IMG/VR virus record: IMGVR_UViG_3300020042_002525
Span: 1-37,686 of that record
Strand: one strand, 5' to 3'
DNA length: 37,686 nucleotides
Source: a virus
Taxonomy: Duplodnaviria > Caudoviricetes
The notes under the pieces are model-generated. The model searched no databases, had not been told where the DNA came from, and saw only the letters and a program-made list of their open reading frames with translations. Positions 1 to 37,686 of this stretch are shown here, piece after piece (positions within the stretch are counted from its first letter, which is position 1; each line of letters starts with the position of its first letter). A program made the translations under genes and the position numbers.

Positions 1-105
1 GCAGAGTTAGAAAGTGGCAAAGTAAAAGTAATAGGTAACGATGTAGTAGACAACATTGAGTTTGATAGTGATTATACTTCAAACAATGTAATATTTGAGC
101 CATGA
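1..105 (+). CDS. Partial 3' end of the hypothetical virion gene seen whole at 36218-36619
   Basis: AELESGKVKVIGNDVVDNIEFDSDY...FEP*; its TGA overlaps the portal ATG. Confidence 0.85.
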   Translation, partial: AELESGKVKVIGNDVVDNIEFDSDYTSNNVIFEP

Positions 106-1172
106 AACTAAACGACATTAAAGACTTCTTTAAAAAGGGGCCTGTTAACTTAACCATGCAGGAAACTGCAAGCGTAAGTAAGTTTAACAGAATAGAACTA
201 CCAAAGATTACAGAGGTTAAGAGCAAAGACTGGGTAAGTTATGGAGTTAATAACATGTACCCTAATGAGTTAATGGCTTTAACTTCTACAAGTGCAATAC
301 ATAACGCTATTATAAAAACTAAGTCGATGCTACAAGCAGGATCAGATATATTAATAGAAGGTACTGCAACACTTGAAGGAAGTGAGGAATATATTAAGGC
401 TTTGCCACTTAACGAAAGTATAAAGTTAAGAAGGCAGATAAAACAATTCGATAAAGTTCGACATAACTTAGCAGCAGACTTTCAAACATTTGGAGCGTAT
501 GCTTACGAAGTAATTTACTCAGTAGACTTTAAAAACATTTTAGAGATTAACCACGTAAACGTATCGCTTATAAGAAGTGGTAAACTTAACGGAAATGGTA
601 ACGTAGAAGAGTATTACTATTCTCGTAACTGGCTTAATACAATGAATAGTAAACCGGAACGCATAGCAGCATTTGACTTGACAAACAAAACAGATGCAAG
701 GCAGTTGGTATATCGGTTTAACTATTCGCCTGAGCAGGAGTATTACGGAATACCTACCTACCAAAGTGCTTTAAGTTGGATTAAATTAGATAGTGAGATA
801 GGTTTGTTTCACTTATCGAATATAGAGAATGGCTTTTTTCCATCGTTACACATGGCTTACTTTAAGTTACCAAGTTCAAACGAAGAGAAACAAACTATTT
901 TAAACATGCAAAAACAGCAGTTTAAAGGAGCAGATAAAGCTGGTAAGGTAATTACAACGTTTAGCGATGGTAAAGACTTAGCTGCTGAGATTAACCCTAT
1001 ACAAGTTAGTGACTTAGATAAACAATTTATTCTAATAGGCGAAAGTTGTGTGCAACAAATCATATCAGCGCATCGAGTTACTTCGCCTATGTTATTAGGT
1101 ATAGCAACCAGCGGAAAGTTAGGATACTCAAATGAGTTGGAGAATGCGTTTAAGATATTTGAAAAGACAGTA
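1..1172 (+). repeat. Left copy of imperfect terminal direct repeat (matches 36515-37686)
   Basis: Colinear with 36515-37686 at a constant offset of 36,514 with no indels; about 58 mismatches by hand count (~95% identity). Confidence 0.97.
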
Positions 1173-3000: not shown

Positions 3001-3228
3001 TTTGTTAAACATTCTATAAGTTAACTCAGCAAACACACTTACAAGACTTGCGATAAACACATCGCCATACATTATAAAGCCTATCCAAAAGCCACTACAT
3101 AAAGCGCAATCTAATAACCTACGAAGCATACCAGTAATAAATAATTTATCCTTTACCCATTCAATAGGTTCGTTAACTACGAATAGATAACTAAAGCAGA
3201 CTACTCCTGCGAATTTAATAAGTTCCAT
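2998..3228 (-). CDS. Small membrane protein with CxxC (DUF1360-like)
   Basis: Hydrophobic 76 aa; LLDCALCSGFW motif. Confidence 0.6.
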   Translation of the reverse strand: MELIKFAGVVCFSYLFVVNEPIEWVKDKLFITGMLRRLLDCALCSGFWIGFIMYGDVFIASLVSVFAELTYRMFNK

Positions 3229-3680
3229 TGTTCTTTTAATTTGTTTCTAATCTTTTCTACATCCCTCCAAATCATACTATAAGTTAGCTTAACCTTTAAC
3301 TCACTAATAATTGTAGGTATCTTCTTACGTTCTACATAGTACAAGGTGTATAATGTTAGTTCGTATTTGTTTAATATCTTTAAGTCAACATCGCAACTAA
3401 CAAACTCGCACTCTTCCTGTATTACATCTAAGTCAATATCTGTTAGTTGCTCTTTGCTGTTATTCTCTTTGGCTATCTCGCTGTTATTCCAACTGCAAGA
3501 CTGGTAAATATATCTTACACAATAAGCCTCTAAGTTCTTAATATCTTTAGCCTCCAATAAGTGTAAGTATAGCAGACTGATAATCGCTTCAGGTTCGTAT
3601 CGTTTGCCTGACTTAAATATAGCAGTCCTTGCTATACTAACTAACTTAGAGTAGTTTTGAGATATGTAAGTATTAACCAA
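3201..3680 (-). CDS. ECF-sigma-factor-like protein (probable late sigma)
   Basis: Region-2-like N-terminus (YSKLVSIAR...EAIISLLYLHLL) and region-4-like HTH (LYYVERKKIPTIISEL...IWRDVEKIRNKLK); TTG start. Confidence 0.6.
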   Translation of the reverse strand: MVNTYISQNYSKLVSIARTAIFKSGKRYEPEAIISLLYLHLLEAKDIKNLEAYCVRYIYQSCSWNNSEIAKENNSKEQLTDIDLDVIQEECEFVSCDVDLKILNKYELTLYTLYYVERKKIPTIISELKVKLTYSMIWRDVEKIRNKLKEQWNLLNSQE

Positions 3681-4449
3681 TTAAGTCAATTATATTAGCT
3701 ACTTGCGTAGTGCTATAAATCCTTTCCTCACTACCTGCTAACAAAGCCTTACCATTAATCTTAAAATCGTTGTAATGGTCTTCTAACTTTTCGATTCTGT
3801 TTTTAAAGTTAGCGTTTGCAGAACTATTAAGTAACTTAGTTCTTATCTCATTACGCACATAGCTGAGGTGGTGCATGGTTAACTCTAACCTACTAAACTC
3901 ATGTACAACTTTACAAGGTACTTTGCGAGTTGGATCGGCTAACAAGTTCCATTTAGTAGACAGCGTATAGTTAGCGTGTGTAATCTTATGAATGAAAGGT
4001 ACATAGTATTCCTCTGCTGGTGTTATAATGCAGTTAGGGTACTTATAATAGGTCTTCATTTTACAAGCAGTAGCTTCTATATCATTACTACTAATTATCT
4101 TTTTAGCCTTATCAAACTCAGCTTTTAGATATAACTCATCGCAATCTATATTAAGATGATGCGTGTAGCCTGTATTCCTTGCGTAGTTTAAACCTAAGTT
4201 ACGCTTTGCTAATTCGTTTTGGTGCGGTGTTTTTTTGAAGTCGGTATCGTAATGAATGATAACATCGATAAGACCTTGTACTTGTAAGGCTTCTAATACT
4301 TTAGCGGTATTAACTTCGCTTTCGTTACCATGATTAGATACGTTCTGCCATACTACAATAATACAATCTACTGAGTTACGAATAGATTTAAGAGAGTGAG
4401 GCAAAAGTTCTAAGCCATCGAAAGCATTATAGGCTGCTGATAGTTTCAT
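3673..4449 (-). CDS. Glycosyltransferase, GT-A fold (GT2-like)
   Basis: LPHSLKSIR..VDCIIVV, KRNLGL, IDCDE (DxD) and MHHLSYVR motifs. Confidence 0.8.
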   Translation of the reverse strand: MKLSAAYNAFDGLELLPHSLKSIRNSVDCIIVVWQNVSNHGNESEVNTAKVLEALQVQGLIDVIIHYDTDFKKTPHQNELAKRNLGLNYARNTGYTHHLNIDCDELYLKAEFDKAKKIISSNDIEATACKMKTYYKYPNCIITPAEEYYVPFIHKITHANYTLSTKWNLLADPTRKVPCKVVHEFSRLELTMHHLSYVRNEIRTKLLNSSANANFKNRIEKLEDHYNDFKINGKALLAGSEERIYSTTQVANIIDLIG

Positions 4450-4574
4450 TTAGTTTGGTACCACATTTCTCCTGTAGCTGGGTTTATAACTGTAAACACT
4501 TTTGTAATACCTTTCAAACTATCGGTTACATTCTCTACAATTAGTTTATCTTTTTGTTCTTGTGTAATTATCAT
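4446..4574 (-). CDS. 42-aa hypothetical protein not in the ORF track
   Basis: MIITQEQKDKLIVENVTDSLKGITKVFTVINPATGEMWYQTK*; TAATG overlap upstream and ATGA overlap downstream. Confidence 0.7.
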   Translation of the reverse strand: MIITQEQKDKLIVENVTDSLKGITKVFTVINPATGEMWYQTK

Positions 4575-5176
4575 TACTTCTTAGGATAAATATAAATAAT
4601 ACCACGTTTAGCACCTGTAGCCTCTGAGTTATACTCAACTACATACTTATCTTTGCCATAGATAGTTTCAATACTTGAAGCAATCCACTCCCAGTTATAA
4701 ACAATATCTTTGTAAACATCGAAGCCTAACTCAGGGTGGTTTGGAACTACGAAGTCATGAATAGCGATAACAGGTTTTAAGTTATGCTTAGCGATAATAG
4801 CTAACTCATTTAATAATGGGTTGTGTGCTAACCAATGAGCATCTAAAAAGCAAAAGATATTACTTTTGTTAGGTGCCTTTGGGTTAATCTCAGCTAACAA
4901 AGTATCTAACACTACATCGCTACTACCTTTGTGTAAGGTTACATTTGGAGTACCTGAAAGGTTGTTAAATGCGTGAGCGTAGTTCTCATCGTTAATCTCA
5001 ATAGTATGTACTTGCTTAGCCATTGTAGCTAACTGCTTAGTAGTACCACCTTTGTAAGTACCAGTTTCGTAAATGGTATGTACTTTAAATTGTGTACATA
5101 AGTCTGTAAACTTTTGCTTTGCAAATGTGTCGCCTTCAAAGCCTAAGGCGTTCTGTTTTAAGTAGTCTGTATTCAT
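4574..5176 (-). CDS. Class I SAM-dependent methyltransferase (Methyltransf_24-like)
   Basis: YETGTYKGGT motif I, TIEI, HKGSSD, FLDAH and IAIHDF. Confidence 0.82.
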   Translation of the reverse strand: MNTDYLKQNALGFEGDTFAKQKFTDLCTQFKVHTIYETGTYKGGTTKQLATMAKQVHTIEINDENYAHAFNNLSGTPNVTLHKGSSDVVLDTLLAEINPKAPNKSNIFCFLDAHWLAHNPLLNELAIIAKHNLKPVIAIHDFVVPNHPELGFDVYKDIVYNWEWIASSIETIYGKDKYVVEYNSEATGAKRGIIYIYPKK

Positions 5177-5187
5177 ATATTTAGTTA

Positions 5188-5817
5188 TTAATTTTCAGCA
5201 AATAAGCACTCGTTGCAAGGAGGATAAATCTTAAATATTTCCTCCCTCCAATTTTCGCACAAAGGTATATTTTTTTTAGTAGGTAAACCTGACGAACTTG
5301 AACAAGGATAAATCATACCATCGACAAACTCAACCGTATCTGAGTGACCTCTAAAGCACATTTTAGTACCTCGTTTAGATAAGTCATCATGTATAACTTT
5401 AGCTGAGTAAATCTCTTTGTTAGGGTACAACTCTCTTATAAATTCTATCTCACTTGTGTTATCGGGACTGCCTACAAAAGTATCTTTAGTATAGTTAGTA
5501 ATATGTATTTGGTCGAAGTGTTGCCATACTTCAGGCTTCTTTCTAAACATAGTACCATTAGTCCATACAGTTAAACTTTCACACTCAAATAGTTCTTTGA
5601 ACTTAGGCACAAACTCTTCAAATTTAGGGTGTACCGATGGCTCGCCTCCTGTTAAATTTATTCTCTTAACACCTTTAAAGTATACAGCAGAGTTAACGTA
5701 GTAGTCCCAACTATAGAACGACTTCATAGACTTAGGTAATGCTGTAATACCAGCGCAACAATTAGGACACTTCATATTACAATGAGTAGTAAAAGAATAG
5801 TTAATGCAGTTAATCAT
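5188..5817 (-). CDS. Radical SAM enzyme with Cys-rich (twitch/SPASM-like) C-terminus
   Basis: CNMKCPNC (CxxxCxxC), LTGGEP, WTNG; C-terminal KMCF...DGMIYPC...PLC...CNEC. Confidence 0.9.
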   Translation of the reverse strand: MINCINYSFTTHCNMKCPNCCAGITALPKSMKSFYSWDYYVNSAVYFKGVKRINLTGGEPSVHPKFEEFVPKFKELFECESLTVWTNGTMFRKKPEVWQHFDQIHITNYTKDTFVGSPDNTSEIEFIRELYPNKEIYSAKVIHDDLSKRGTKMCFRGHSDTVEFVDGMIYPCSSSSGLPTKKNIPLCENWREEIFKIYPPCNECLFAEN

Positions 5818-6494
5818 AACCCTTTCATTTTAAATATTGTTTTATCTGTTATAGTATGTTCCTGACCAACGTAGGCTAAATGAATTGTATTACTTATTAA
5901 TTTAGCACCAGTAAAGTAAGCAGCTAAAGTTAGTCCGCTTTGGTCTTGTCGATGAAATAAAAAGCGTTTATCTTCGCTTTGGTTATCGTGCTCTCGTGAA
6001 CCTTTAAATACTCCCTCCAGTGCAAACTGAGCAAAAAGACTTCCTATATCTTCACCAAAACTATTAAGATTTAACCCAAAAATACAACTCCAAACTTCGT
6101 GAATAGTTTCTGCTGCGTTCCTTGATATACCAACTATATCTAAAGCCTTATCACTTATCGTTTGTGCGCCGTTATAACCACTATCAATTAAGTAGTAACC
6201 TTTATTTTCTATTATATCGAATATAGGTTGTGGGTGCTGATGTAACCAAACAGAACAATCTAACCAAAGTATTTGTTCGTACCCTAACTTCTTAGCTTCA
6301 AATATTGCAGCAGCTTTAATTGTATAGGGACAATCACTTTTATAATAATCGTTTATAGTTGTATCACTAAAAAAAAGAGTATCACCAGTATAACCTACAT
6401 CGATTAAAGATTGTTTTAATCTTTGTTGACCCTCAGCATACCAGCTTGCGCCTCCTATGTATGCGTTTACTATTACTTGTTTACTTGATGCCAT
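5814..6494 (-). CDS. Nucleotide-diphospho-sugar transferase-like protein (GT-A)
   Basis: IKAAAI...ILWLDCS and HRQDQS motifs resemble GT8/GT34/GT77/DUF1647-type GT-A proteins. Confidence 0.6.
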   Translation of the reverse strand: MASSKQVIVNAYIGGASWYAEGQQRLKQSLIDVGYTGDTLFFSDTTINDYYKSDCPYTIKAAAIFEAKKLGYEQILWLDCSVWLHQHPQPIFDIIENKGYYLIDSGYNGAQTISDKALDIVGISRNAAETIHEVWSCIFGLNLNSFGEDIGSLFAQFALEGVFKGSREHDNQSEDKRFLFHRQDQSGLTLAAYFTGAKLISNTIHLAYVGQEHTITDKTIFKMKGL

Positions 6495-7068
6495 ACTTTG
6501 CTTTATGTGGTTGTTTATTAGTGTAGTTGTAGTGGAATAAAGGCTCGCTAATATAATTACTTTTTGTCAATATAGGGTTAAGCCTATCGGAATAATCTTT
6601 ATCCTCCCCATAACGCATATCTTTAAATCCTGCCTGTAACGCTTTGCTTCTTAGTACTGGGTTAAAGTGTATAATAGGGCGGTAATAAGTAAACGCTTCG
6701 TAACTCTTAGCATCTCTCCAAACTTCGCCAAACTTATGGCACCACGTTTGAGGGTTATCGCCATTAGTGGTCATCGTTCCGTTAATACCGATGCAGTCTA
6801 TACCATCGCTAATAGCGTTAAGGATAAGCTGGCAATAGTTATGCGCTGGCAAGTCATCATCATCAAAGAATACTATCCATTCGCCTTGCGCTTTCTCTAA
6901 TAGTTGCTGTCTTTTTTTACCTATTGACATCTCTTTGTTATCGCAAATTACAACTACTTCTACTTCGTCTAATTGGTTGTAGCTTATTTCGTAGTTAAAC
7001 TTTTCTAACAACTTACTAAACTGCTCAGAGCGTTCTATTACAGTTGCTATTAGTATGGATAGTTTCAT
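6481..7068 (-). CDS. Glycosyltransferase family 2
   Basis: LSILIAT, IGKKRQ, FFDDDD, GEDKDY. Confidence 0.88.
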   Translation of the reverse strand: MKLSILIATVIERSEQFSKLLEKFNYEISYNQLDEVEVVVICDNKEMSIGKKRQQLLEKAQGEWIVFFDDDDLPAHNYCQLILNAISDGIDCIGINGTMTTNGDNPQTWCHKFGEVWRDAKSYEAFTYYRPIIHFNPVLRSKALQAGFKDMRYGEDKDYSDRLNPILTKSNYISEPLFHYNYTNKQPHKAKYGIK

Positions 7069-7751
7069 AGTTTAGCTTTTAACCATGCGATGTGACCTTT
7101 AGCATGTTGGTTTAACTTAAAGTTGTTTGGGTAGTTGGTACGAACCAAGTCTAAGTATAACTTTTCGCCTTGATCCCACGTTGCGTTATTCTTTGCATTA
7201 ATAGCATCGTTACCTGTTACATGGGTAAAGTGTGGAAACACAATGTCATTACGAACTATTAGCCTACCTTCTAAGTCTGCTACATGAGTAAGCCAAGTGT
7301 CGCAAAACATGTGCTTAAACTCAGGGTAATAAATGTAATTGAACTGCTTGTAGTATTCCCAATCCATTATAGGTAAGGTAACAATCCAATGTTGAGTAGT
7401 ATCGAAAGTCTTTAGGACAAAATTTGTCCTATTACCTATAACGTTTAATAACGTTTCATCCCAATGCAAGGGACAATCGAAGTCATCGCTTATCACTACA
7501 ACGATGTCAAAGGTTAAAGACTTAGCAGCGTTGTTAATAGCTTCTACTGCATTAGAGTTAACGCCTATTAACATGCTTTCGCCATCGAAGTGCTTACGAT
7601 AGTCAGGTAGTTGGTCTGCTTCAATGCTTAACCAGTAGCTAAGTAAGTGAGGCTTCTTTGCTTTGCTAAGCCATTTGTGCATGGTCTTACTTGCAAGTTC
7701 TGCTCTGCCTCGTGAGGGGTGTATTAGTGTTATGTTACGCATAAAATCCAT
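7065..7751 (-). CDS. Glycosyltransferase family 2-like
   Basis: LIHPSRGR, AINNAA, VISDDF, HMFCD. Confidence 0.78.
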   Translation of the reverse strand: MDFMRNITLIHPSRGRAELASKTMHKWLSKAKKPHLLSYWLSIEADQLPDYRKHFDGESMLIGVNSNAVEAINNAAKSLTFDIVVVISDDFDCPLHWDETLLNVIGNRTNFVLKTFDTTQHWIVTLPIMDWEYYKQFNYIYYPEFKHMFCDTWLTHVADLEGRLIVRNDIVFPHFTHVTGNDAINAKNNATWDQGEKLYLDLVRTNYPNNFKLNQHAKGHIAWLKAKL

Positions 7752-8337
7752 TCGTTAATTTATTAAAATATTCTTTAGTTATCTTTTTGTCCCAGTTAAA
7801 GTGCGCCTTGTGTCCTGCCCCAACTGTTACACCATCGCCATGCTTAATACCAATAGCACCAATAGCAGGTATAGCCTTAAATGTTTTAGCCTTGCTTATC
7901 TCTAAGTCAATAAATGGAGAGCAACTCAGTTGCATGTTAAGCACTTCTTTAGTAAGCAACATCGACATCATGCTACTTCTATTCGGGTGCTTCATAACTC
8001 TAATACCTAAGCTATTAATGTGTATGTATATCGTTTCGTCTTGACCAAATAAAGCAGGGTTACCTAATCTATTCCATTCGTTAACTAATGTTTCGCAATA
8101 GTCAGCAGGGTAGTAGTCGTCATCTTCAAAGACAATAGCGTAGTCGTAATCTCTTTCTCTAAACACCTCATCAAATAGCCAAAAGTATCGCTCTGCTATA
8201 TCGTTAACTTTTGTTTCAGGTGGATAGTTGCAAATAAGATGTCCTAACTGCAACGTTTGATACGCAACCATGCGCTTACAACGTTCTAACCATTGCGGTC
8301 TATCGCCTCGTGTTGGTGTTATAATGCAGCCTACCAT
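7735..8337 (-). CDS. Glycosyltransferase family 2-like
   Basis: IITPTRGDR..WL...YQT and VFEDDDYYP motifs. Confidence 0.78.
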   Translation of the reverse strand: MVGCIITPTRGDRPQWLERCKRMVAYQTLQLGHLICNYPPETKVNDIAERYFWLFDEVFRERDYDYAIVFEDDDYYPADYCETLVNEWNRLGNPALFGQDETIYIHINSLGIRVMKHPNRSSMMSMLLTKEVLNMQLSCSPFIDLEISKAKTFKAIPAIGAIGIKHGDGVTVGAGHKAHFNWDKKITKEYFNKLTNGFYA

Positions 8338-8864
8338 TGTACTTTGCTATTAGGATTCATTTGTACTAACTCAACTCCTGCTTTCTGCATACTTGCGTTA
8401 AGTCCTTTGAAGTCTTTGTTTATTCTTTCTACTGCGTGGCTTGCATGATGTGTAATCATATCTACACCATACAACTCTATACGCTTTGCACCCATATAAT
8501 ATGCTATAACGCAACCTACAAACGGACTTATAATTGATTTGTTTAATCGGTTGTAATCGTTAAGCTGGTAGTCGTTTCGTTCTCTAAAACCTACATGTAC
8601 TAACGGACTATTTACAGGTATGTTACGATGTGAGAATACACACGTTGTATTCGTTTGCGCAATAGTTTGCCACCTATTACCACCAAAGCTATGAGGCATA
8701 TCAAGGCATACCAAGTAAGTTGGACTATAATAAAAAGCAACATCATTAACTCCAATGGTAGTACCTTTATTTTCTTTAGGAGTAAACAAATGAATACTTT
8801 CGCCACAACCAAGCACGCTGATAGTTTCGCCTTCATGTATATTAATGTAGTCTTTAAATTCCAT
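8331..8864 (-). CDS. Maf/DUF115- or sialyltransferase-like (GT29/GT42-type) protein
   Basis: VLGCGES, IGVND, YLVCLD and AYYMGAKRIELYGVDM pattern. Confidence 0.65.
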   Translation of the reverse strand: MEFKDYINIHEGETISVLGCGESIHLFTPKENKGTTIGVNDVAFYYSPTYLVCLDMPHSFGGNRWQTIAQTNTTCVFSHRNIPVNSPLVHVGFRERNDYQLNDYNRLNKSIISPFVGCVIAYYMGAKRIELYGVDMITHHASHAVERINKDFKGLNASMQKAGVELVQMNPNSKVQW

Positions 8865-9063
8865 TATTCTTATGCTCTACATACTTAATAATAAACTCAC
8901 AATAGTCGCAACCGATATAGTCGCATATCTTAACTATCTCGCTAAAGTTAAGCTGTAACCCTCTATAAAAGTTTAACTTATAGCTTAACGACTGCTGAGT
9001 AATACCGAGTTCGTATGCTATTTGTTTCTGTGAATAACCGAACTCTTTAAAATATCTATTCAT
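8854..9063 (-). CDS. XRE/Cro-type HTH regulator (69 aa; start reassigned to ATG 9063)
   Basis: SQKQIAYELGITQQSLSYKLN...EIVKICDYIG; the ATG lies 4 nt after a TATATTTG element. Confidence 0.82.
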   Translation of the reverse strand: MNRYFKEFGYSQKQIAYELGITQQSLSYKLNFYRGLQLNFSEIVKICDYIGCDYCEFIIKYVEHKNNGI

Positions 9064-9067
9064 ACAG

Positions 9068-9075
9068 CAAATATA
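9068..9075 (-). promoter_or_regulatory. Leftward -7 element (TATATTTG) driving the HTH-glyco-sigma operon, leaderless
   Basis: Exact TAnnTTTG match; no clear -33 box. Confidence 0.6.
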
Positions 9076-9145
9076 GTTATAAATACAACACATTAAATAA
9101 TATTATAAAAAACAAATACTTTGATAATCAAACACTTACACTTTT

Positions 9146-12602: not shown

Positions 12603-14783
12603 ATGAATTACAATGATTTTTTAGAAACTAAAAGAAAGACTTTTTTAGAGAGTGGTTTTGAAATTAATGAAGATGATTTAAATCCATTATTAAAAGACTT
12701 TCAAAAGTATGGTATTAAAACTTCTTTATTTAAAGGTAGGTTTGCTTTTTTCTTTGATTGTGGATTAGGTAAGACTTTCTCTCAATTAGAATGGGCAAAA
12801 CAAGTATCAATAAAAACACAAATGAAGGTTTTAATTTTAGCACCTTTAGCAATAGTTGAGCAAACAAAAAGAGAGGCTGTTAAGTTTGGTATTAGTTTAG
12901 ATTATTTTGATATAACTAATTACGATCAATTAAAAAATACTGATTGCTCTATTTATTCAGGAGTTGTTTTAGATGAGAGTTCTATTTTAAAAGGTAGAGA
13001 TGGTAAATTATCAAGTCTAATAATAGAAACGTTTAAACAAACTCCTTATAAACTTTGCTGCACAGCTACACCAAGTCCAAACGACCACATGGAATTAGGG
13101 CAGCATAGTGAGTTCTTAGGAGGTATGAGTTACTTAGAAATGTTAGCTATGTTCTTTGTTCATGATGGAGGCGAAACTTCTAAATGGCGATTAAGAAAGC
13201 ACGCTAAGGATGCATTTTGGAAGTATGTATCAAGTTGGTCTATGGCAATAGATAATCCAAGTAGCTTAGGTTTTAATAGTGAAGGTTATAATTTACCTGA
13301 AATAGAATATATTGAGCATATTGTTTCTGTTGAAAATAAAACAGATAATCTATTCGGCGATGTAGCTGTAAGTGCAACTGACTTGCATAAGGATTTAAAC
13401 AGAAGCTGGGATATGAGATTAGAAAAAGCTATTGAATTAGTTAATTCTAATAATGAACAATGGATTGTTTGGGGTTTAAAAAATAATGAAACTGATACGC
13501 TTTCAAAAAAAATAGATGATTGTGTAAATGTTCAAGGTTCTGATAGCCCTGAGTATAAAGCAAAACATTTAAATGGATTTGCAAAGAATGAATTTAAAAC
13601 TTTAATAACAAAGACTTCAATAGCTTCATTTGGTATGAACTACCAACAATGTAATCAAATGATATTTATGTCTTATGATTTTAAGTTTGAAGCGTTCTAT
13701 CAAGCAGTAAGAAGGTGTTATAGATTTGGACAAAAAAACAAAGTAACAGTTCATATTCTTATTCCTGAAAGCCAAACAAATGTTAGACAAACTATTTTAG
13801 AAAAAGAGAAACAACACTTTGAAAGAATAAAAGAAATGGCTAAATATTCTGCCGAAACAAATTATAAAACAGCTAAATCAAAAGTTAAAATTATGAATAA
13901 AGAAATTAAAACAAATGAATACCATTTGATAAATGGCGATTGCGTTCAGGAAACTAAAAAGCTAAAAGATAACTGTGCAGATATAGTTGTTTTTAGTCCT
14001 CCATTTGCAGAGTTGTATGTTTATTCTGATAAGGAAGAGGATATGGGTAATGTATCTAACTATAAACAATTTGAGAACCATTTTAAATATCTTATCCCTG
14101 AGTTAAAAAGAACTTTAAAAAGTGGTCGGATGTGTGCTATACATTGTATGGACTTGCCAATTCAAAAAGGCAAAGAAGGTTATATTGGTCTTAGGGACTT
14201 TAGCGGAATGTTAATTAACTGGTTTCAAAATGAAGGATTTATTTATCATTCTAAAGTTACTTTGTGGAAGAATCCTGTAACAGAAATGCAAAGAACTAAA
14301 GCATTAGGATTGTTACATAAAACTATAAAAAAAGATAGTATAATGTCGAGAGTTGGTATTCCTGACTATGTATTGTTTTTTAGAAATGAAGGAGATAATG
14401 AAACTCCAATAACGCACCAAGATAAAGATAGTTCTAAATTAGATTATTTACCTGTAGACTTATGGCAAAAATACGCTTCTCCTGTATGGTATGATATTGA
14501 TTATAGTAGAACTTTACAATATCGCTCAGGTAGAGATGGTAATGATGAGAAGCATATTTGTCCTTTACAATTAGATACTATTGAAAGAATATTACATTTA
14601 TATTCTAATGAAGGAGATACTGTATTAAGTCCATTTGGAGGTATTGGCAGTGAAGGTTGCTCAGCTATTAAAATGAATAGAAAGAGTATTAGTATTGAAT
14701 TAAAAGAAAGCTACTTTAAAATAAATGAATCAAATCATAAAGCATTTGTTGCAGAAAAAAATAGTATTTTAACTTTATTTTAA
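12603..14783 (+). CDS. SNF2-type helicase fused to an N4/N6 DNA methyltransferase (beta class)
   Basis: GLGKT, LDES, TATPSPN, QAVRRCYRFGQ; then INGDC, FSPPF, HICPLQ, SPFGGIGS. Confidence 0.88.
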   Translation: MNYNDFLETKRKTFLESGFEINEDDLNPLLKDFQKYGIKTSLFKGRFAFFFDCGLGKTFSQLEWAKQVSIKTQMKVLILAPLAIVEQTKREAVKFGISLDYFDITNYDQLKNTDCSIYSGVVLDESSILKGRDGKLSSLIIETFKQTPYKLCCTATPSPNDHMELGQHSEFLGGMSYLEMLAMFFVHDGGETSKWRLRKHAKDAFWKYVSSWSMAIDNPSSLGFNSEGYNLPEIEYIEHIVSVENKTDNLFGDVAVSATDLHKDLNRSWDMRLEKAIELVNSNNEQWIVWGLKNNETDTLSKKIDDCVNVQGSDSPEYKAKHLNGFAKNEFKTLITKTSIASFGMNYQQCNQMIFMSYDFKFEAFYQAVRRCYRFGQKNKVTVHILIPESQTNVRQTILEKEKQHFERIKEMAKYSAETNYKTAKSKVKIMNKEIKTNEYHLINGDCVQETKKLKDNCADIVVFSPPFAELYVYSDKEEDMGNVSNYKQFENHFKYLIPELKRTLKSGRMCAIHCMDLPIQKGKEGYIGLRDFSGMLINWFQNEGFIYHSKVTLWKNPVTEMQRTKALGLLHKTIKKDSIMSRVGIPDYVLFFRNEGDNETPITHQDKDSSKLDYLPVDLWQKYASPVWYDIDYSRTLQYRSGRDGNDEKHICPLQLDTIERILHLYSNEGDTVLSPFGGIGSEGCSAIKMNRKSISIELKESYFKINESNHKAFVAEKNSILTLF

Positions 14784-14796
14784 TTAACTTTACCTT

Positions 14797-14925
14797 ATCG
14801 GAGTAACGAACCGATTTTTAGAAATAGCAAAACATTAAAAGACTTTAGACCTCTAAAGGCTTAGTGTAAGGAGTTTTGCCCTTACTTGCTTCGTAAGCAA
14901 ACTAAGTCCTTAGGGGTTTTTTAAT
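14797..14925 (+). ncRNA. Structured cis-regulatory RNA (three-way junction, attenuator/C4-like)
   Basis: 19-bp basal stem 14847-14865/14901-14919 enclosing hairpins 14866-14885 and 14886-14900, then a T-run. Confidence 0.65.
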
Positions 14926-14935
14926 TAAACAAGCT

Positions 14936-15694
14936 ATGAATAAATTAGGTTACACATGGTATCCAAGAGATTGGGCAACATCAGAAAGCGTATTTGAATT
15001 ATCATTAAGTGAGCGAGGTTTGTATCGTGAATTTATAGACCTTGCTATGATGTCTGATAATAAAATAGATGTTAAGTTAGATGTGTGGGTTAGAAAGTTT
15101 TGTGTATCTAAAGAAGATATTAATTTAATTATTGATAAGTTAACTCAACTAAAGTTAATAAAAATTAAAGAAAATACTTTGATTATACCAAGTTGCGAAA
15201 GTCGTTTAGTATTAGTGCGTTCAGGTAGTAAGGGTGGTAAAATAAGTAAGCCTAACCCGAAGCCTAACCCGAAGCCTAACCCGAAGCCTTTTGAAAGCCT
15301 TGACGAAAAAAACGATAAGCCTATAGCGAAGCAAAGAGAAAGAGAAAGAGAAAGAGAAACTAAATCAATTAATAATGTTGAGAGTTATTTTTTAGATTTA
15401 GAAAGTTCAAATATTTTAATTGAAATAGCAAGGATTAATAACTTAGAGATTGCAATAGTAAAAAAGCAATTACTAAATTTTAGAACTTATGCCGAATTAG
15501 AATATACAGACTATAAAAGATTTGTTAATCATTTTAAGAACTGGTTAAACAAACAAAAAGAAAATTTATCATTAGAAGATATCTGCCCATACACACCTGA
15601 GCAAATGACTTACTTTAGAAAGCTATACCAAAGCGACTTAGGTTTACCTACTGCATTCGATAAACGTTTTACACACCTACTTAAAAACTATTAG
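14936..15694 (+). CDS. Replication initiator-like protein (DUF1376/YdaU-like N-terminus)
   Basis: YPRDW....LSLSERGLY N-terminus, low-complexity linker with DNA repeats, HFKNWL C-domain; precedes the helicase. Confidence 0.7.
   Translation: MNKLGYTWYPRDWATSESVFELSLSERGLYREFIDLAMMSDNKIDVKLDVWVRKFCVSKEDINLIIDKLTQLKLIKIKENTLIIPSCESRLVLVRSGSKGGKISKPNPKPNPKPNPKPFESLDEKNDKPIAKQRERERERETKSINNVESYFLDLESSNILIEIARINNLEIAIVKKQLLNFRTYAELEYTDYKRFVNHFKNWLNKQKENLSLEDICPYTPEQMTYFRKLYQSDLGLPTAFDKRFTHLLKNY
15248..15359 (+). repeat. Iteron-like repeats, probable replication origin
   Basis: (AAGCCTAACCCG)x3.5 at 15248-15289, AAGCCT at 15295 and 15317, then an (AGAGAA)x4 purine tract. Confidence 0.7.
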
Positions 15695-15697
15695 CCT

Positions 15698-16660
15698 ATG
15701 AAAGGTTTTAAGATAATAGAGTTTGCAGATGTTGAGCAGGACTTATACTCCTACCATAAGTACGGTGCTAAGAAAGGTGTTTATGTTGGCTTCGATGCTT
15801 TCGATGGGTTCTATAATATGAAAGAAAGCGGTTGCACAGATTGGACTGGCTTACCTCAGTCAGGTAAGACTGAACTATTATTAGAGTTATTGTTTAACGC
15901 TTCTGAGTTCTATGGCTGGAAGCACTTGCTTTATGTACCTGACATTGGAGATAGTATTGAGGTTATGTGTGCGCTTATTCATAAGTATACCGGTAAGACT
16001 TTTGATAAGCAATATAAGAACTACATCGATATTAAAGAAGCATTTAAGGCTTGCGACTGGTTACTACAACACTTCTTTATATTGGAAAGGATAGATCCAA
16101 AAGCTACTATAACTCCTATTCAATTTTGGGACTATGCTATTAACTTTAAAAAAACTCATGGTATTCATACTGCAACTATTGATAGTTGGAAAGACTTATA
16201 CCATCCTTACTCTGAGTATGGTGGTAACTATGCTATGTACTTATCTAACGTGCTACCTATTCGCAACATGTTAAGTGAGCAACACAACATACACTTTCAC
16301 ACTATTATACACCCTAAGACACCTCGCAGAGATAAGAATGGTAAACTACACCATCCACAAACAGATGATATGGAAGGAGGAGCGCAATGGAATAATAGCG
16401 GTAAATCAATTATAAGCGTACATCGTGAGAGTTACGATAATACCATAGCAGACATACAAATACTAAAGGCTAAGCCTAAGATAGTTGGTAAGCGTGGCAT
16501 GTTATCGCTTAACTTTGATATTGTTTTGAGTAGGTATTACGAAACTTATCCAAGCGGACATAAAATGTATTCACATAGAGAAACTAAAATAGACTTAAAT
16601 GAAAGACGAAACACAGACTTTTTACCAAGAACTGATGAAGGTAATGACACACCCTTCTGA
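15698..16660 (+). CDS. SF4/DnaB-like replicative helicase
   Basis: Walker A GLPQSGKT, TIDSW, IIHP, GGAQW, QILKAK. Confidence 0.78.
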   Translation: MKGFKIIEFADVEQDLYSYHKYGAKKGVYVGFDAFDGFYNMKESGCTDWTGLPQSGKTELLLELLFNASEFYGWKHLLYVPDIGDSIEVMCALIHKYTGKTFDKQYKNYIDIKEAFKACDWLLQHFFILERIDPKATITPIQFWDYAINFKKTHGIHTATIDSWKDLYHPYSEYGGNYAMYLSNVLPIRNMLSEQHNIHFHTIIHPKTPRRDKNGKLHHPQTDDMEGGAQWNNSGKSIISVHRESYDNTIADIQILKAKPKIVGKRGMLSLNFDIVLSRYYETYPSGHKMYSHRETKIDLNERRNTDFLPRTDEGNDTPF

Positions 16661-36218: not shown

Positions 36219-36619
36219 TGATTACAATAAACAAAGGACAAACAAACGAAGTGTCGGTTACGTTAAATGAAAAAATAACGATAACTAACCCTTCGTTTGT
36301 CTTTGTATTTACAAACGATACTACAGGAACTACAAAAACGTTTACAGCTACCGATACCAGCTTAACACCTGTTAGATTTAATCGCTTTAGCATAATAGAG
36401 AATGTAACAGAAGATGTATACAACGGTACAATAAGCCTAACTAATCAAGGTTTTTGGAGTTATAGCATTTATGAAACACCTTACGCAAGTCCGATAGATT
36501 TAACAGACTTAGGAGCAGAGTTAGAAAGTGGCAAAGTAAAAGTAATAGGTAACGATGTAGTAGATAACATTGAGTTCGATAGTGATTATACTTCGGACAA
36601 TGTAATATTTGAGCCATGA
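36218..36619 (+). CDS. Hypothetical virion protein (head closure-like)
   Basis: 133 aa, beta-rich; coupled to the portal gene by ATGA. Confidence 0.55.
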   Translation: MITINKGQTNEVSVTLNEKITITNPSFVFVFTNDTTGTTKTFTATDTSLTPVRFNRFSIIENVTEDVYNGTISLTNQGFWSYSIYETPYASPIDLTDLGAELESGKVKVIGNDVVDNIEFDSDYTSDNVIFEP

Positions 36620-37686
36620 AACTAAACGACATTAAAGACTTCTTTAAAAAGGAGCCTGTTAACTTATCGATGGCAGAAACTGCAAGCGTTAGTAAGTTTA
36701 ATAGAATAGAACTACCAAAGATTACAGAGGTTAAGAGCAAAGACTGGGTAAGTTATGGAGTTAATAACATGTACCCGAATGAGTTGATGGCTTTAACATC
36801 TACAAGTGCAATCCATAACGCTATTATTAAAACTAAGTCGATGCTACAAGCAGGCTCAGATATATTAATAGAAGGAACTGCAACACTTGAAGGTAGTGAG
36901 GAATATATTAAGTCTTTACCACTTAACGAAAGTATAAAGTTAAGAAGGCAGATAAAACAATTCGATAAAGTTCGCCATAACTTAGCAGCAGACTTCCAAA
37001 CATTTGGAGCGTATGCTTACGAAGTAATTTATTCAGTAGACTTTAAAAACATTTTAGAGATTAACCACGTAAACGTATCGCTTATAAGAAGCGGTAAGCT
37101 AAACGAAGATGGCAATGTAGAAGAGTATTACTATTCTCGTAACTGGCTTAATACAATGAATAACAAACCACAACGCATAGCAGCATTTGACTTGACAAAC
37201 AAAACAGATGCAAGGCAGTTGGTTTACAGATTTAACTATTCTCCTGAGCAGGAGTATTACGGAATACCTACTTACCAAAGTGCGTTAAGTTGGATTAAAT
37301 TAGATAGTGAGATAGGTTTGTTTCACTTATCTAATATTGAGAATGGCTTCTTTCCATCGTTACACATGGCTTACTTTAAGTTACCAAGTAGCAACGAAGA
37401 GAAACAAACTATCTTAAACATGCAAAAACAGCAGTTTAAAGGAGCAGATAAAGCTGGTAAGGTAATTACAACATTTAGCGATGGTAAAGACTTAGCTGCT
37501 GAGATTAACCCTATACAAGTTAGCGACTTAGATAAACAATTTATTCTAATAGGAGAAAGTTGTGTACAACAAATCATTAGTGCGCATCGAGTTACTTCGC
37601 CTATGTTATTAGGTATAGCAACCAGCGGAAAGTTAGGATACTCAAATGAGTTGGAGAATGCGTTTAAGATATTTGAAAAGACAGTA
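36515..37686 (+). repeat. Right copy of imperfect terminal direct repeat
   Basis: Matches 1-1172 at ~95% identity. Confidence 0.97.
36616..37686 (+). CDS. Portal protein, second allele, truncated by the window end
   Basis: Open frame colinear with 102-1172; mostly synonymous differences. Confidence 0.9.
   Translation, partial: MKLNDIKDFFKKEPVNLSMAETASVSKFNRIELPKITEVKSKDWVSYGVNNMYPNELMALTSTSAIHNAIIKTKSMLQAGSDILIEGTATLEGSEEYIKSLPLNESIKLRRQIKQFDKVRHNLAADFQTFGAYAYEVIYSVDFKNILEINHVNVSLIRSGKLNEDGNVEEYYYSRNWLNTMNNKPQRIAAFDLTNKTDARQLVYRFNYSPEQEYYGIPTYQSALSWIKLDSEIGLFHLSNIENGFFPSLHMAYFKLPSSNEEKQTILNMQKQQFKGADKAGKVITTFSDGKDLAAEINPIQVSDLDKQFILIGESCVQQIISAHRVTSPMLLGIATSGKLGYSNELENAFKIFEKTV

What the first reader, a model, noticed from the sequence alone, without database searches (positions are those of the whole stretch)
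14785..14935. Three-way-junction RNA with loop-complementary upstream sites gating the replication genes
Seen: a 19-bp basal stem (14847-14865/14901-14919, one mismatch) encloses two abutting hairpins, GTAAGG-AGTTTTGC-CCTTAC and TTGCTT-CGT-AAGCAA, with no unpaired junction bases. A T-run follows, 13 nt before the initiator ATG. Loop 1 GTTTTGC is complementary to upstream GCAAAAC (14827-14833). TTCGT of hairpin 2 is complementary to ACGAA in the loop of an upstream hairpin (14797-14815; only 5 bp). A competing hairpin CTTTAG/CTAAAG (14843-14858) would disrupt the basal stem. A promoter-like TAACTTTA lies at 14785. Established: the P1 C4 and P4 CI RNAs use this layout, a multi-stem RNA whose loops pair with sites in the same transcript. 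Inference: an RNA immunity or attenuation switch controlling replication initiation in a Bacteroidota phage.
Basis: partly seen in the sequence, partly recalled or inferred. Interest (0 to 1): 0.78.

Follow-up and report, generated by a model that had tools for sequence, protein, structure and literature searches.

The report
Double-kissing three-way-junction phage attenuator RNA
In front of this phage's predicted DNA-replication genes lies a ~125-base non-coding leader whose two hairpin loops are complementary to two upstream words; related phages keep both matches with different letters, and the leader likely works as an uncatalogued RNA switch that would decide whether transcription passes a predicted stop signal.

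Summary
Observation confirmed. The three-way junction (14847-14919) is real, and it belongs to a family: 33 of 74 hits of one motif scan are the same element. In 20 distinct copies, 99.4% of cells pair. Loop1:target1 (7 bp) takes five perfectly matched word pairs. The competing hairpin is kept in 20 of 20 but is absent from a divergent pair. Simpler one-loop leaders precede the same initiator family: own loop/target match of 6 nt or more in 45 of 54, against 125 of 2840 cross pairs. No Rfam match. Best reading: a ligand-free transcription attenuator in which double loop-target pairing plus the competing hairpin would hold the terminator open, as in guanidine-IV, with accumulated leader RNA possibly closing it in trans, as P4 CI does. 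Immunity is less likely: there is no downstream target, 23 of 25 related contigs lack a tyrosine integrase, and the code words are not hypervariable. No expression or functional data. Earlier scan notes describe the one-loop form; those shown to me do not describe this two-loop junction form.

The parts
14785..14792 (+). Predicted Bacteroidota sigmaA -7 promoter box (TAACTTTA, a variant of TAnnTTTG); predicted start of transcription near 14797
   Evidence: 19 of 20 aligned copies have canonical TAnnTTTG in this column, the window being the exception. Box position -12 to -5 is from PMC9723704 passages. The start site is inferred.
14797..14815 (+). 5' hairpin P1, 9-nt loop carrying target 2
   Evidence: 2 of 4 counted pairs show double-sided changes, 100% of cells paired
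14806..14810 (+). Target 2 (ACGAA), complementary to loop 2
   Evidence: ACGAA/TTCGT in 14 of 20 copies, ACTAA/TTAGT in 6 of 20; GGCAC/TTGCC pairs at 4 of 5 positions in L397 and L409
14827..14833 (+). Target 1 (GCAAAAC), complementary to loop 1
   Evidence: 4 of 7 pairs with double-sided changes, 99.3% of cells paired; fixed 38-39 nt before H1; perfect in 29 of 33 members and 23 of 23
14843..14858 (+). Competing (predicted antiterminator) hairpin CTTTAG-ACCT-CTAAAG, which takes the 5' strand of the outer basal helix
   Evidence: 6 bp in 15 of 20 copies and 5 bp in 5 of 20; the window has a compensatory A-U to U-A change against CATTAG/CTAATG; not seen in divergent L365
14847..14919 (+). Three-way junction: basal stem (predicted terminator helix) enclosing H1 and H2
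   Evidence: 8 of 16 counted basal pairs with double-sided changes; 27 G-U against 3 A-C cells of 340 favour the + strand RNA
14866..14885 (+). Hairpin H1; loop 1 word GTTTTGC at 14873-14879
14886..14900 (+). Hairpin H2; loop 2 word TTCGT at 14890-14894
   Evidence: C-G to A-U stem change in 6 of 20
14917..14922 (+). U-tract of the predicted intrinsic terminator
   Evidence: T-rich tail after the stem in all 20 aligned copies, interrupted by a C in 3; termination not tested
14936..15694 (+). Predicted replication initiator (DnaD / lambda-O-like) with an internal 12-bp x3 repeat at 15248-15289
   Evidence: PHROG 186 E=8.6e-4; some relatives match replication-initiation PHROGs; best fold match is a Rep initiator but weak, E=0.05; repeats
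15698..16660 (+). Primase/helicase-like gene downstream in the same operon
   Evidence: PHROG 18375 E=3.6e-11

Best explanation
The leader is a conserved folded sequence in which two hairpin loops are complementary to two upstream words, and it likely acts as a ligand-free transcription attenuator for the predicted replication genes. Inferred steps: (1) transcription starts near 14797; P1 folds, target 1 stays single-stranded, and the competing hairpin 14843-14858 forms before the 3' strand exists. (2) As H1 and H2 emerge, loop 1 pairs with target 1 and loop 2 with target 2. This nested double pseudoknot would lock the competing hairpin and strain the short linker, so the outer basal helix next to the U-tract cannot close in time and polymerase reads through. 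(3) If the targets are not captured, the 3' strand displaces the competing hairpin, the full stem forms and transcription stops near 14923. (4) The most likely regulatory input is the leader RNA itself: terminated or processed junction RNA would accumulate and occupy the targets of new transcripts in trans, as P4 CI does. That gives negative feedback that times or caps replication-gene expression. Steps 1-3 rest on covariation and folding models; step 4 rests on analogy only (about 0.35 on its own).
For: Covariation of both loop-target helices, P1, basal stem, H1 and H2: 99.4% of 840 cells paired, 17 of 42 pairs with double-sided changes, slid controls 22-50% paired. Competing hairpin in 20 of 20 with a compensatory change in the window. 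The folding series of growing window transcripts shows the competing hairpin at 14860-14875 and 14890-14910, replaced by the terminator helix at 14915. The terminator is favoured by 8.6-16.4 kcal/mol without pseudoknots (window 9.3), the same order as the two duplexes (-6.3 and -2.9), so a kinetic switch is plausible. Target-1 spacing is fixed at 38-39 nt, as expected for a cis geometric effect. One-loop relatives: own match of 6 nt or more in 45 of 54 against 125 of 2840 cross pairs. Precedents read as passages: kissing-loop antitermination in guanidine-IV (PMC7736828, PMC11611296) and CI-dependent termination of P4 replication genes (PMC4825925). In all 5 contigs seen with two leaders the codes differ.
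Against: No expression, termination or probing data. Covariation shows that the pairs form, not when they form or whether they promote read-through; the direction of the switch is inferred. The 20 copies are related: the ACTAA/TTAGT change may be a single event in one clade, with L365/L397 as a second. The competing hairpin is absent from L365, and the model gives it low probability in the nascent prefix of 5 of 20 copies (0.03-0.27). Target-1/loop-1 columns are no more variable than the basal stem or linker (entropy 0.57/0.53 against 0.48/0.57 and 0.64), which weakens the trans 'specificity code' idea. Linker length does not rise with stem length in one-loop leaders (Spearman -0.28, p=0.07, n=44). 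The window's promoter box is non-canonical. The initiator assignment rests on weak hits.
Confidence: 0.5

Rival explanations
1. Stable terminated small RNA. The basal stem is a plain terminator, and the two loop-target pairings form only after release, giving a compact double-pseudoknot RNA with its own job (protein binding, protection from decay, replication primer). Replication genes would be reached by leaky read-through or from an upstream promoter.
For: The terminator conformer is the energy minimum. Promoter plus terminator define a ~125-nt unit. H1, H2 and the linker words are more conserved than pairing requires.
Against: The conserved competing hairpin serves no purpose in this model. 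The unit always sits a few bases before a start codon (5-17 nt by the measure), as a cis element would.
Confidence: 0.17
2. P4 CI / P1 C4-type immunity. A resident prophage or carrier state makes processed junction RNA that shuts off replication genes of incoming phages with the same code.
For: Two loops with two nested upstream targets match the a'/b' and a1/b1 layout (c4 drawing in PMC2864571 supplement 6). Many different codes: 37 distinct target words among 44 one-loop leaders.
Against: No downstream target (2 of 20 and 3 of 44 scattered hits). No tyrosine integrase in 23 of 25 contigs, no serine resolvase or ParA in 25 of 25. The two integrase-bearing proviruses showed no leader match (whole-record scan of one). 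Codes are not hypervariable.
Confidence: 0.13
3. Factor-gated switch. A phage or host protein, or a small ligand, stabilises or breaks the double kiss, as guanidine does in guanidine-IV.
For: Invariant unpaired words beside target 1 (ATAG) and in the P1 loop could be binding sites. The architecture resembles guanidine-IV.
Against: One-loop relatives share almost no sequence (3 invariant columns of 128), unlike a ligand pocket. The downstream genes are replication and DNA-modification genes, not metabolic ones.
Confidence: 0.12
4. The kiss promotes termination or controls translation or decay of the read-through mRNA rather than antitermination.
For: Covariation has no direction. The stem ends 13 nt before the ATG.
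Against: No conformer sequesters the start region in the folding series. The competing hairpin acts on the terminator strand.
Confidence: 0.06
5. Single-stranded DNA structure of the replication origin rather than RNA.
For: It lies next to a predicted initiator gene.
Against: 27 G-U against 3 A-C cells on the + strand. Weaker DNA folding. Promoter and U-tract flank it. Copies precede non-initiator genes, and iteron-like repeats lie inside the initiator gene instead.
Confidence: 0.02

Closest known systems
Guanidine-IV riboswitch (GGAM-1; PMC7736828 and PMC11611296, passages read)
   Same: A 5' hairpin loop pairs with the loop on a terminator stem; the kiss competes sterically with closing of the terminator's outer base pairs and gives read-through.
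   Different: Here there are two loops on a three-way junction, a separate competing hairpin, variable pairing words and no conserved ligand pocket. Phage replication genes lie downstream. No Rfam match.
Phage P4 CI RNA with seqA/seqC (passage in PMC4825925; the primary paper PMC176756 was not held)
   Same: A multi-stem RNA in an untranslated leader, complementary to an upstream site of its own transcript, ahead of replication genes; control by premature termination.
   Different: No downstream seqC-like site. The antisense RNA is itself the predicted terminator. No integrase in most carriers. Processing and trans action are untested.
P1/P7 C4 antisense RNA and c4-a1b1 target (Rfam RF01695; PMC2864571 table and supplement 6 read; PMC8546580 passage)
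   Same: Two loops (a', b') against two upstream targets (a1, b1), with covarying words.
   Different: C4 is listed for Proteobacteria and their phages and represses antirepressor synthesis. A second target pair a2/b2 and RNase P processing (both recalled) have no counterpart shown here. No Rfam hit.
pT181 / pIP501 antisense attenuators of plasmid rep genes (recalled, not read)
   Same: RNA-RNA pairing decides whether a terminator forms ahead of a replication initiator.
   Different: Those use an RNA from the opposite strand. No antisense promoter at a fixed place was found here.

Membership tests
C4 / c4-2 / isrK (Rfam) | Match to the Rfam covariance model | tested here: not met
   0 hits at gathering in the window; only two snoRNA chance hits at E<=10 in 14600-15100; one tRNA only in 20 related loci; 0 at E<=1 in 10 further loci
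P4 CI / P1 C4 antisense systems | Loops complementary to upstream sites of the same transcript | tested here: met
P4 CI / P1 C4 antisense systems | Second, downstream target (seqC; a2/b2) | tested here: not met
   target-1 copy downstream in 2 of 20 junction leaders; 6-mer in 3 of 44 one-loop leaders
P4 CI / P1 C4 antisense systems | Processed stable RNA acting in trans | not testable with these tools
   needs RNA data or bench work
P4 CI / P1 C4 antisense systems | Temperate element whose resident state gives immunity | tested here: not met
   no integrase or ParA among the 46 window ORFs scanned; integrase in 2 of 25, resolvase in 0 of 25, ParA in 0 of 25 related contigs; an unrecognised carrier state is not excluded
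Guanidine-IV riboswitch | 5' loop pairs with terminator loop | tested here: met
Guanidine-IV riboswitch | Highly conserved ligand-binding nucleotides and sugE/mepA-type downstream genes; Rfam match | tested here: not met
   pairing words vary freely; downstream genes are phage replication or DNA-modification genes; no Rfam hit
pT181-type antisense attenuator | Counter-transcript from a promoter on the opposite strand | tested here: inconclusive
   a reverse TAnnTTTG occurs downstream in 7 of 20 leaders at unfixed places and not in the window; non-canonical promoters not excluded
Intrinsic terminator | Stem followed by U-tract that stops transcription | tested here: inconclusive
   stem and T-rich tail conserved; the simple scanner missed it because of the branched loop; stopping not measured

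The most novel reading that the evidence does not exclude
A protein-free, ligand-free feedback circuit for phage replication: one short leader is at once the terminator, a two-key lock that opens it in cis, and, once released, the trans-acting inhibitor that closes later transcripts. It would give apparently lytic Bacteroidota phages a timer or copy counter and a code-specific way to silence co-infecting relatives, with several non-interfering codes per genome.
Probability: 0.3. Interest if true: 0.85.

Novelty: new variant of a known kind. Interest (0 to 1): 0.62.

Why it matters
It is an uncatalogued, widespread phage regulatory RNA with strong covariation support, including long-range pairs that standard covariance models cannot see. 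If the mechanism holds, it shows that kissing-loop antitermination (known from a ligand riboswitch) is used with no ligand and two keys. It also suggests that CI-like RNA feedback extends to phages that show no sign of lysogeny. The natural variants supply ready compensatory mutants for a direct test, and the interchangeable 7-nt and 5-nt codes could serve as small orthogonal transcription switches for Bacteroidota genetics.

Tried and rejected
A 12-bp alternative pairing of 14794-14806 with H2, suggested by folding the window prefix, was rejected because the ACTAA-type variants break it. An exact search for the window's H1 found nothing. A mis-spaced H1 pattern returned 77 non-members. BLAST of the window leader and of L295's leader against cultured phage records gave only short chance hits, and the initiator had no tblastn match there. 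The RNA model over 151 Flavobacteriaceae-family genomes gave 2 weak hits that are ordinary terminators; the first look scores few candidates, so this means 'not found in those searched'. MAFFT could not align the one-loop leaders, so no model was built for them. Sequencing runs: no RNA holder listed; the single DNA run did not cover the leader. The fold search of the initiator model gave no match at E<=0.001. Accelerated evolution of the code words was tested and not seen. A linker-stem length correlation was tested and not seen. Literature: the searches listed no paper describing this element. Fremin 2023 (PMC10690425): six short motifs were absent from 6 supplementary files, but files 1, 2 and 4 were not searched. 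Weinberg 2017 (PMC5737381): supplement unreadable, although its motifs deposited in Rfam are covered by the Rfam scans. A prior listing among their unnamed candidates is therefore not excluded.

Full report
Setting. The window is a whole 37.7-kb virus record whose start recurs at 36515, with portal, terminase, tail and endolysin genes. A Bacteroidota host is inferred from TAnnTTTG promoter boxes and from a homologue named as Bacteroidia. The finding fills the 152-nt gap between an SNF2 helicase-methylase gene (12603-14783) and ORF 14936-15694. That ORF is a predicted replication initiator: PHROG 186 at E=8.6e-4, replication-initiation PHROG hits for some relatives, an internal 12-bp x3 repeat, a primase/helicase-like gene after it, and only a weak fold match to a Rep initiator (E=0.05).

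Observation. The fold is more stable than 198 of 200 shuffles and than all 1505 sampled genome windows. Rfam has no match in the window or, apart from one tRNA, in 30 locus scans of relatives.

The junction family. Scans of viral contigs with H2 and H1 patterns found 23 of 41 and 33 of 74 hits to be the same element; the rest were chance or coding hits and were set aside. I aligned 20 distinct full-length copies, leaving out 2 truncated ones. With both pseudoknots written in, 99.4% of 840 cells pair and 17 of 42 pairs change on both sides, while slid controls reach 22-50%. The tool warns that its shuffle control ignores relatedness. Target 1 and loop 1 appear as GCAAAAC/GTTTTGC, GATTCAC/GTGAATC, GATTGAC/GTCAATC, GCTTAAC/GTTAAGC and GTTCAAC/GTTGAAC, plus one variant with a single mismatch (4 of 33 members), always 38-39 nt apart by the measure used. 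A further scan that left the three central letters of both words free gave 20 hits: the 9 that fold as the junction are all complementary, and the 11 others are not. The competing hairpin is present in 20 of 20 (15 with 6 bp, 5 with 5 bp), and the window's CTTTAG/CTAAAG is a compensatory form of CATTAG/CTAATG; it is not seen in divergent L365. G-U cells outnumber A-C cells 27 to 3 in the basal stem, which points to the + strand RNA. TAACTTTA aligns with canonical TAnnTTTG in the other 19 copies; with the box at -12 to -5 (PMC9723704 passage), +1 would be 14797, the first base of P1.

The wider family. Among loci of initiator homologues, a detector with no complementarity filter found 54 promoter-stem-U-tract leaders. 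Of these, 45 have a loop matching their own upstream region over 6 nt or more, against 125 of 2840 cross pairs. The window scored only 5 in that test because the folding program pairs part of loop 1. Most are one-loop leaders, with 37 distinct target words among 44. The junction model hits several of them weakly (E 6e-4 to 0.9), so the junction form is probably a two-key elaboration of the one-loop form. An earlier filtered run was biased toward complementarity and is used only for listing. Leaders precede several unrelated initiator-like families, SNF2-methylase and other genes, so they mark operon starts rather than one gene. Five contigs with two leaders all have different codes (L001, L021, L030, G003, G004), but those copies differ throughout, so this is not proof of selected insulation.

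Mechanism. In a folding series of growing transcripts, the competing hairpin is present at most lengths up to 14910 and is displaced by the outer basal helix at 14915. That outer helix, next to the U-tract, is the part an intrinsic terminator needs. Without pseudoknots the terminator wins by 8.6-16.4 kcal/mol (window 9.3), and the two duplexes are worth about -6.3 and -2.9 as separate strands, so the outcome could be kinetic. I infer that the nested double pairing holds the terminator open, as proposed for guanidine-IV, where a kissing loop hinders the terminator's outer pairs (PMC7736828 and PMC11611296 passages). What modulates it is unknown. The most likely input is the released junction RNA binding targets in trans, as P4 CI does for P4 replication genes (PMC4825925 passage), but this is analogy.

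Against immunity. There is no downstream target. I picked 25 long contigs, mostly for carrying leaders, without checking each one: 23 lack a tyrosine integrase, and none has a resolvase or ParA. The two with an integrase are proviruses whose initiator abuts the upstream gene and showed no leader match. Code columns are no more variable than the basal stem or linker.

Novelty. No Rfam family matches, and none of the literature searches listed a description. Large candidate lists (Fremin 2023 supplements in part, Weinberg 2017 supplement, a 2026 preprint's supplements) could not be fully checked. Earlier notes of this scan report the one-loop kissing leader many times; they are unreviewed leads, and none of those shown describes a two-loop junction with a competing hairpin. 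Verdict: a real, uncatalogued RNA; a new variant of known attenuation logic; function untested.

Noticed in passing
L072:2370-2500, L079, L108, L143, L148, L151, L153, L165 (leaders of the same initiator family): A second, different leader type: promoter box, multi-stem fold, and an internal word complementary to words downstream near the start codon (L072 TTTAAGTAGTT with AACTACTTTAA). No Rfam hit in those scanned.
   Followed up: partly
L009:2212-2337, L045:2076-2201, L083:2200-2370: A third leader subtype, in which the complementary word sits in an internal bulge of the long stem instead of an apical loop (L009 TCGCAC/GTGCGA).
   Followed up: partly
window 15248-15289: AAGCCTAACCCG repeated three times inside the initiator gene (encoding KPNP repeats); a candidate lambdoid-type origin iteron array.
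   Followed up: no
window 3201-9093 (- strand): A Cro/C1-type HTH gene heads a reverse-strand operon with two glycosyltransferases and a radical SAM protein, divergent from the early genes; possibly a DNA- or surface-modification module.
   Followed up: no
window 14770-14777 and 14785-14792: TAACTTTA occurs twice, 15 nt apart; the upstream copy lies in the end of the helicase-methylase gene and could be a second promoter box.
   Followed up: no
L034 (G002) and L082 (G167): The only integrase-bearing records checked have the initiator directly coupled to the upstream gene and no detected leader.
   Followed up: partly
window 1-1172 and 36515-37686: Terminal redundancy of about 1.17 kb: the record is a complete or circularly permuted genome.
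   Followed up: partly
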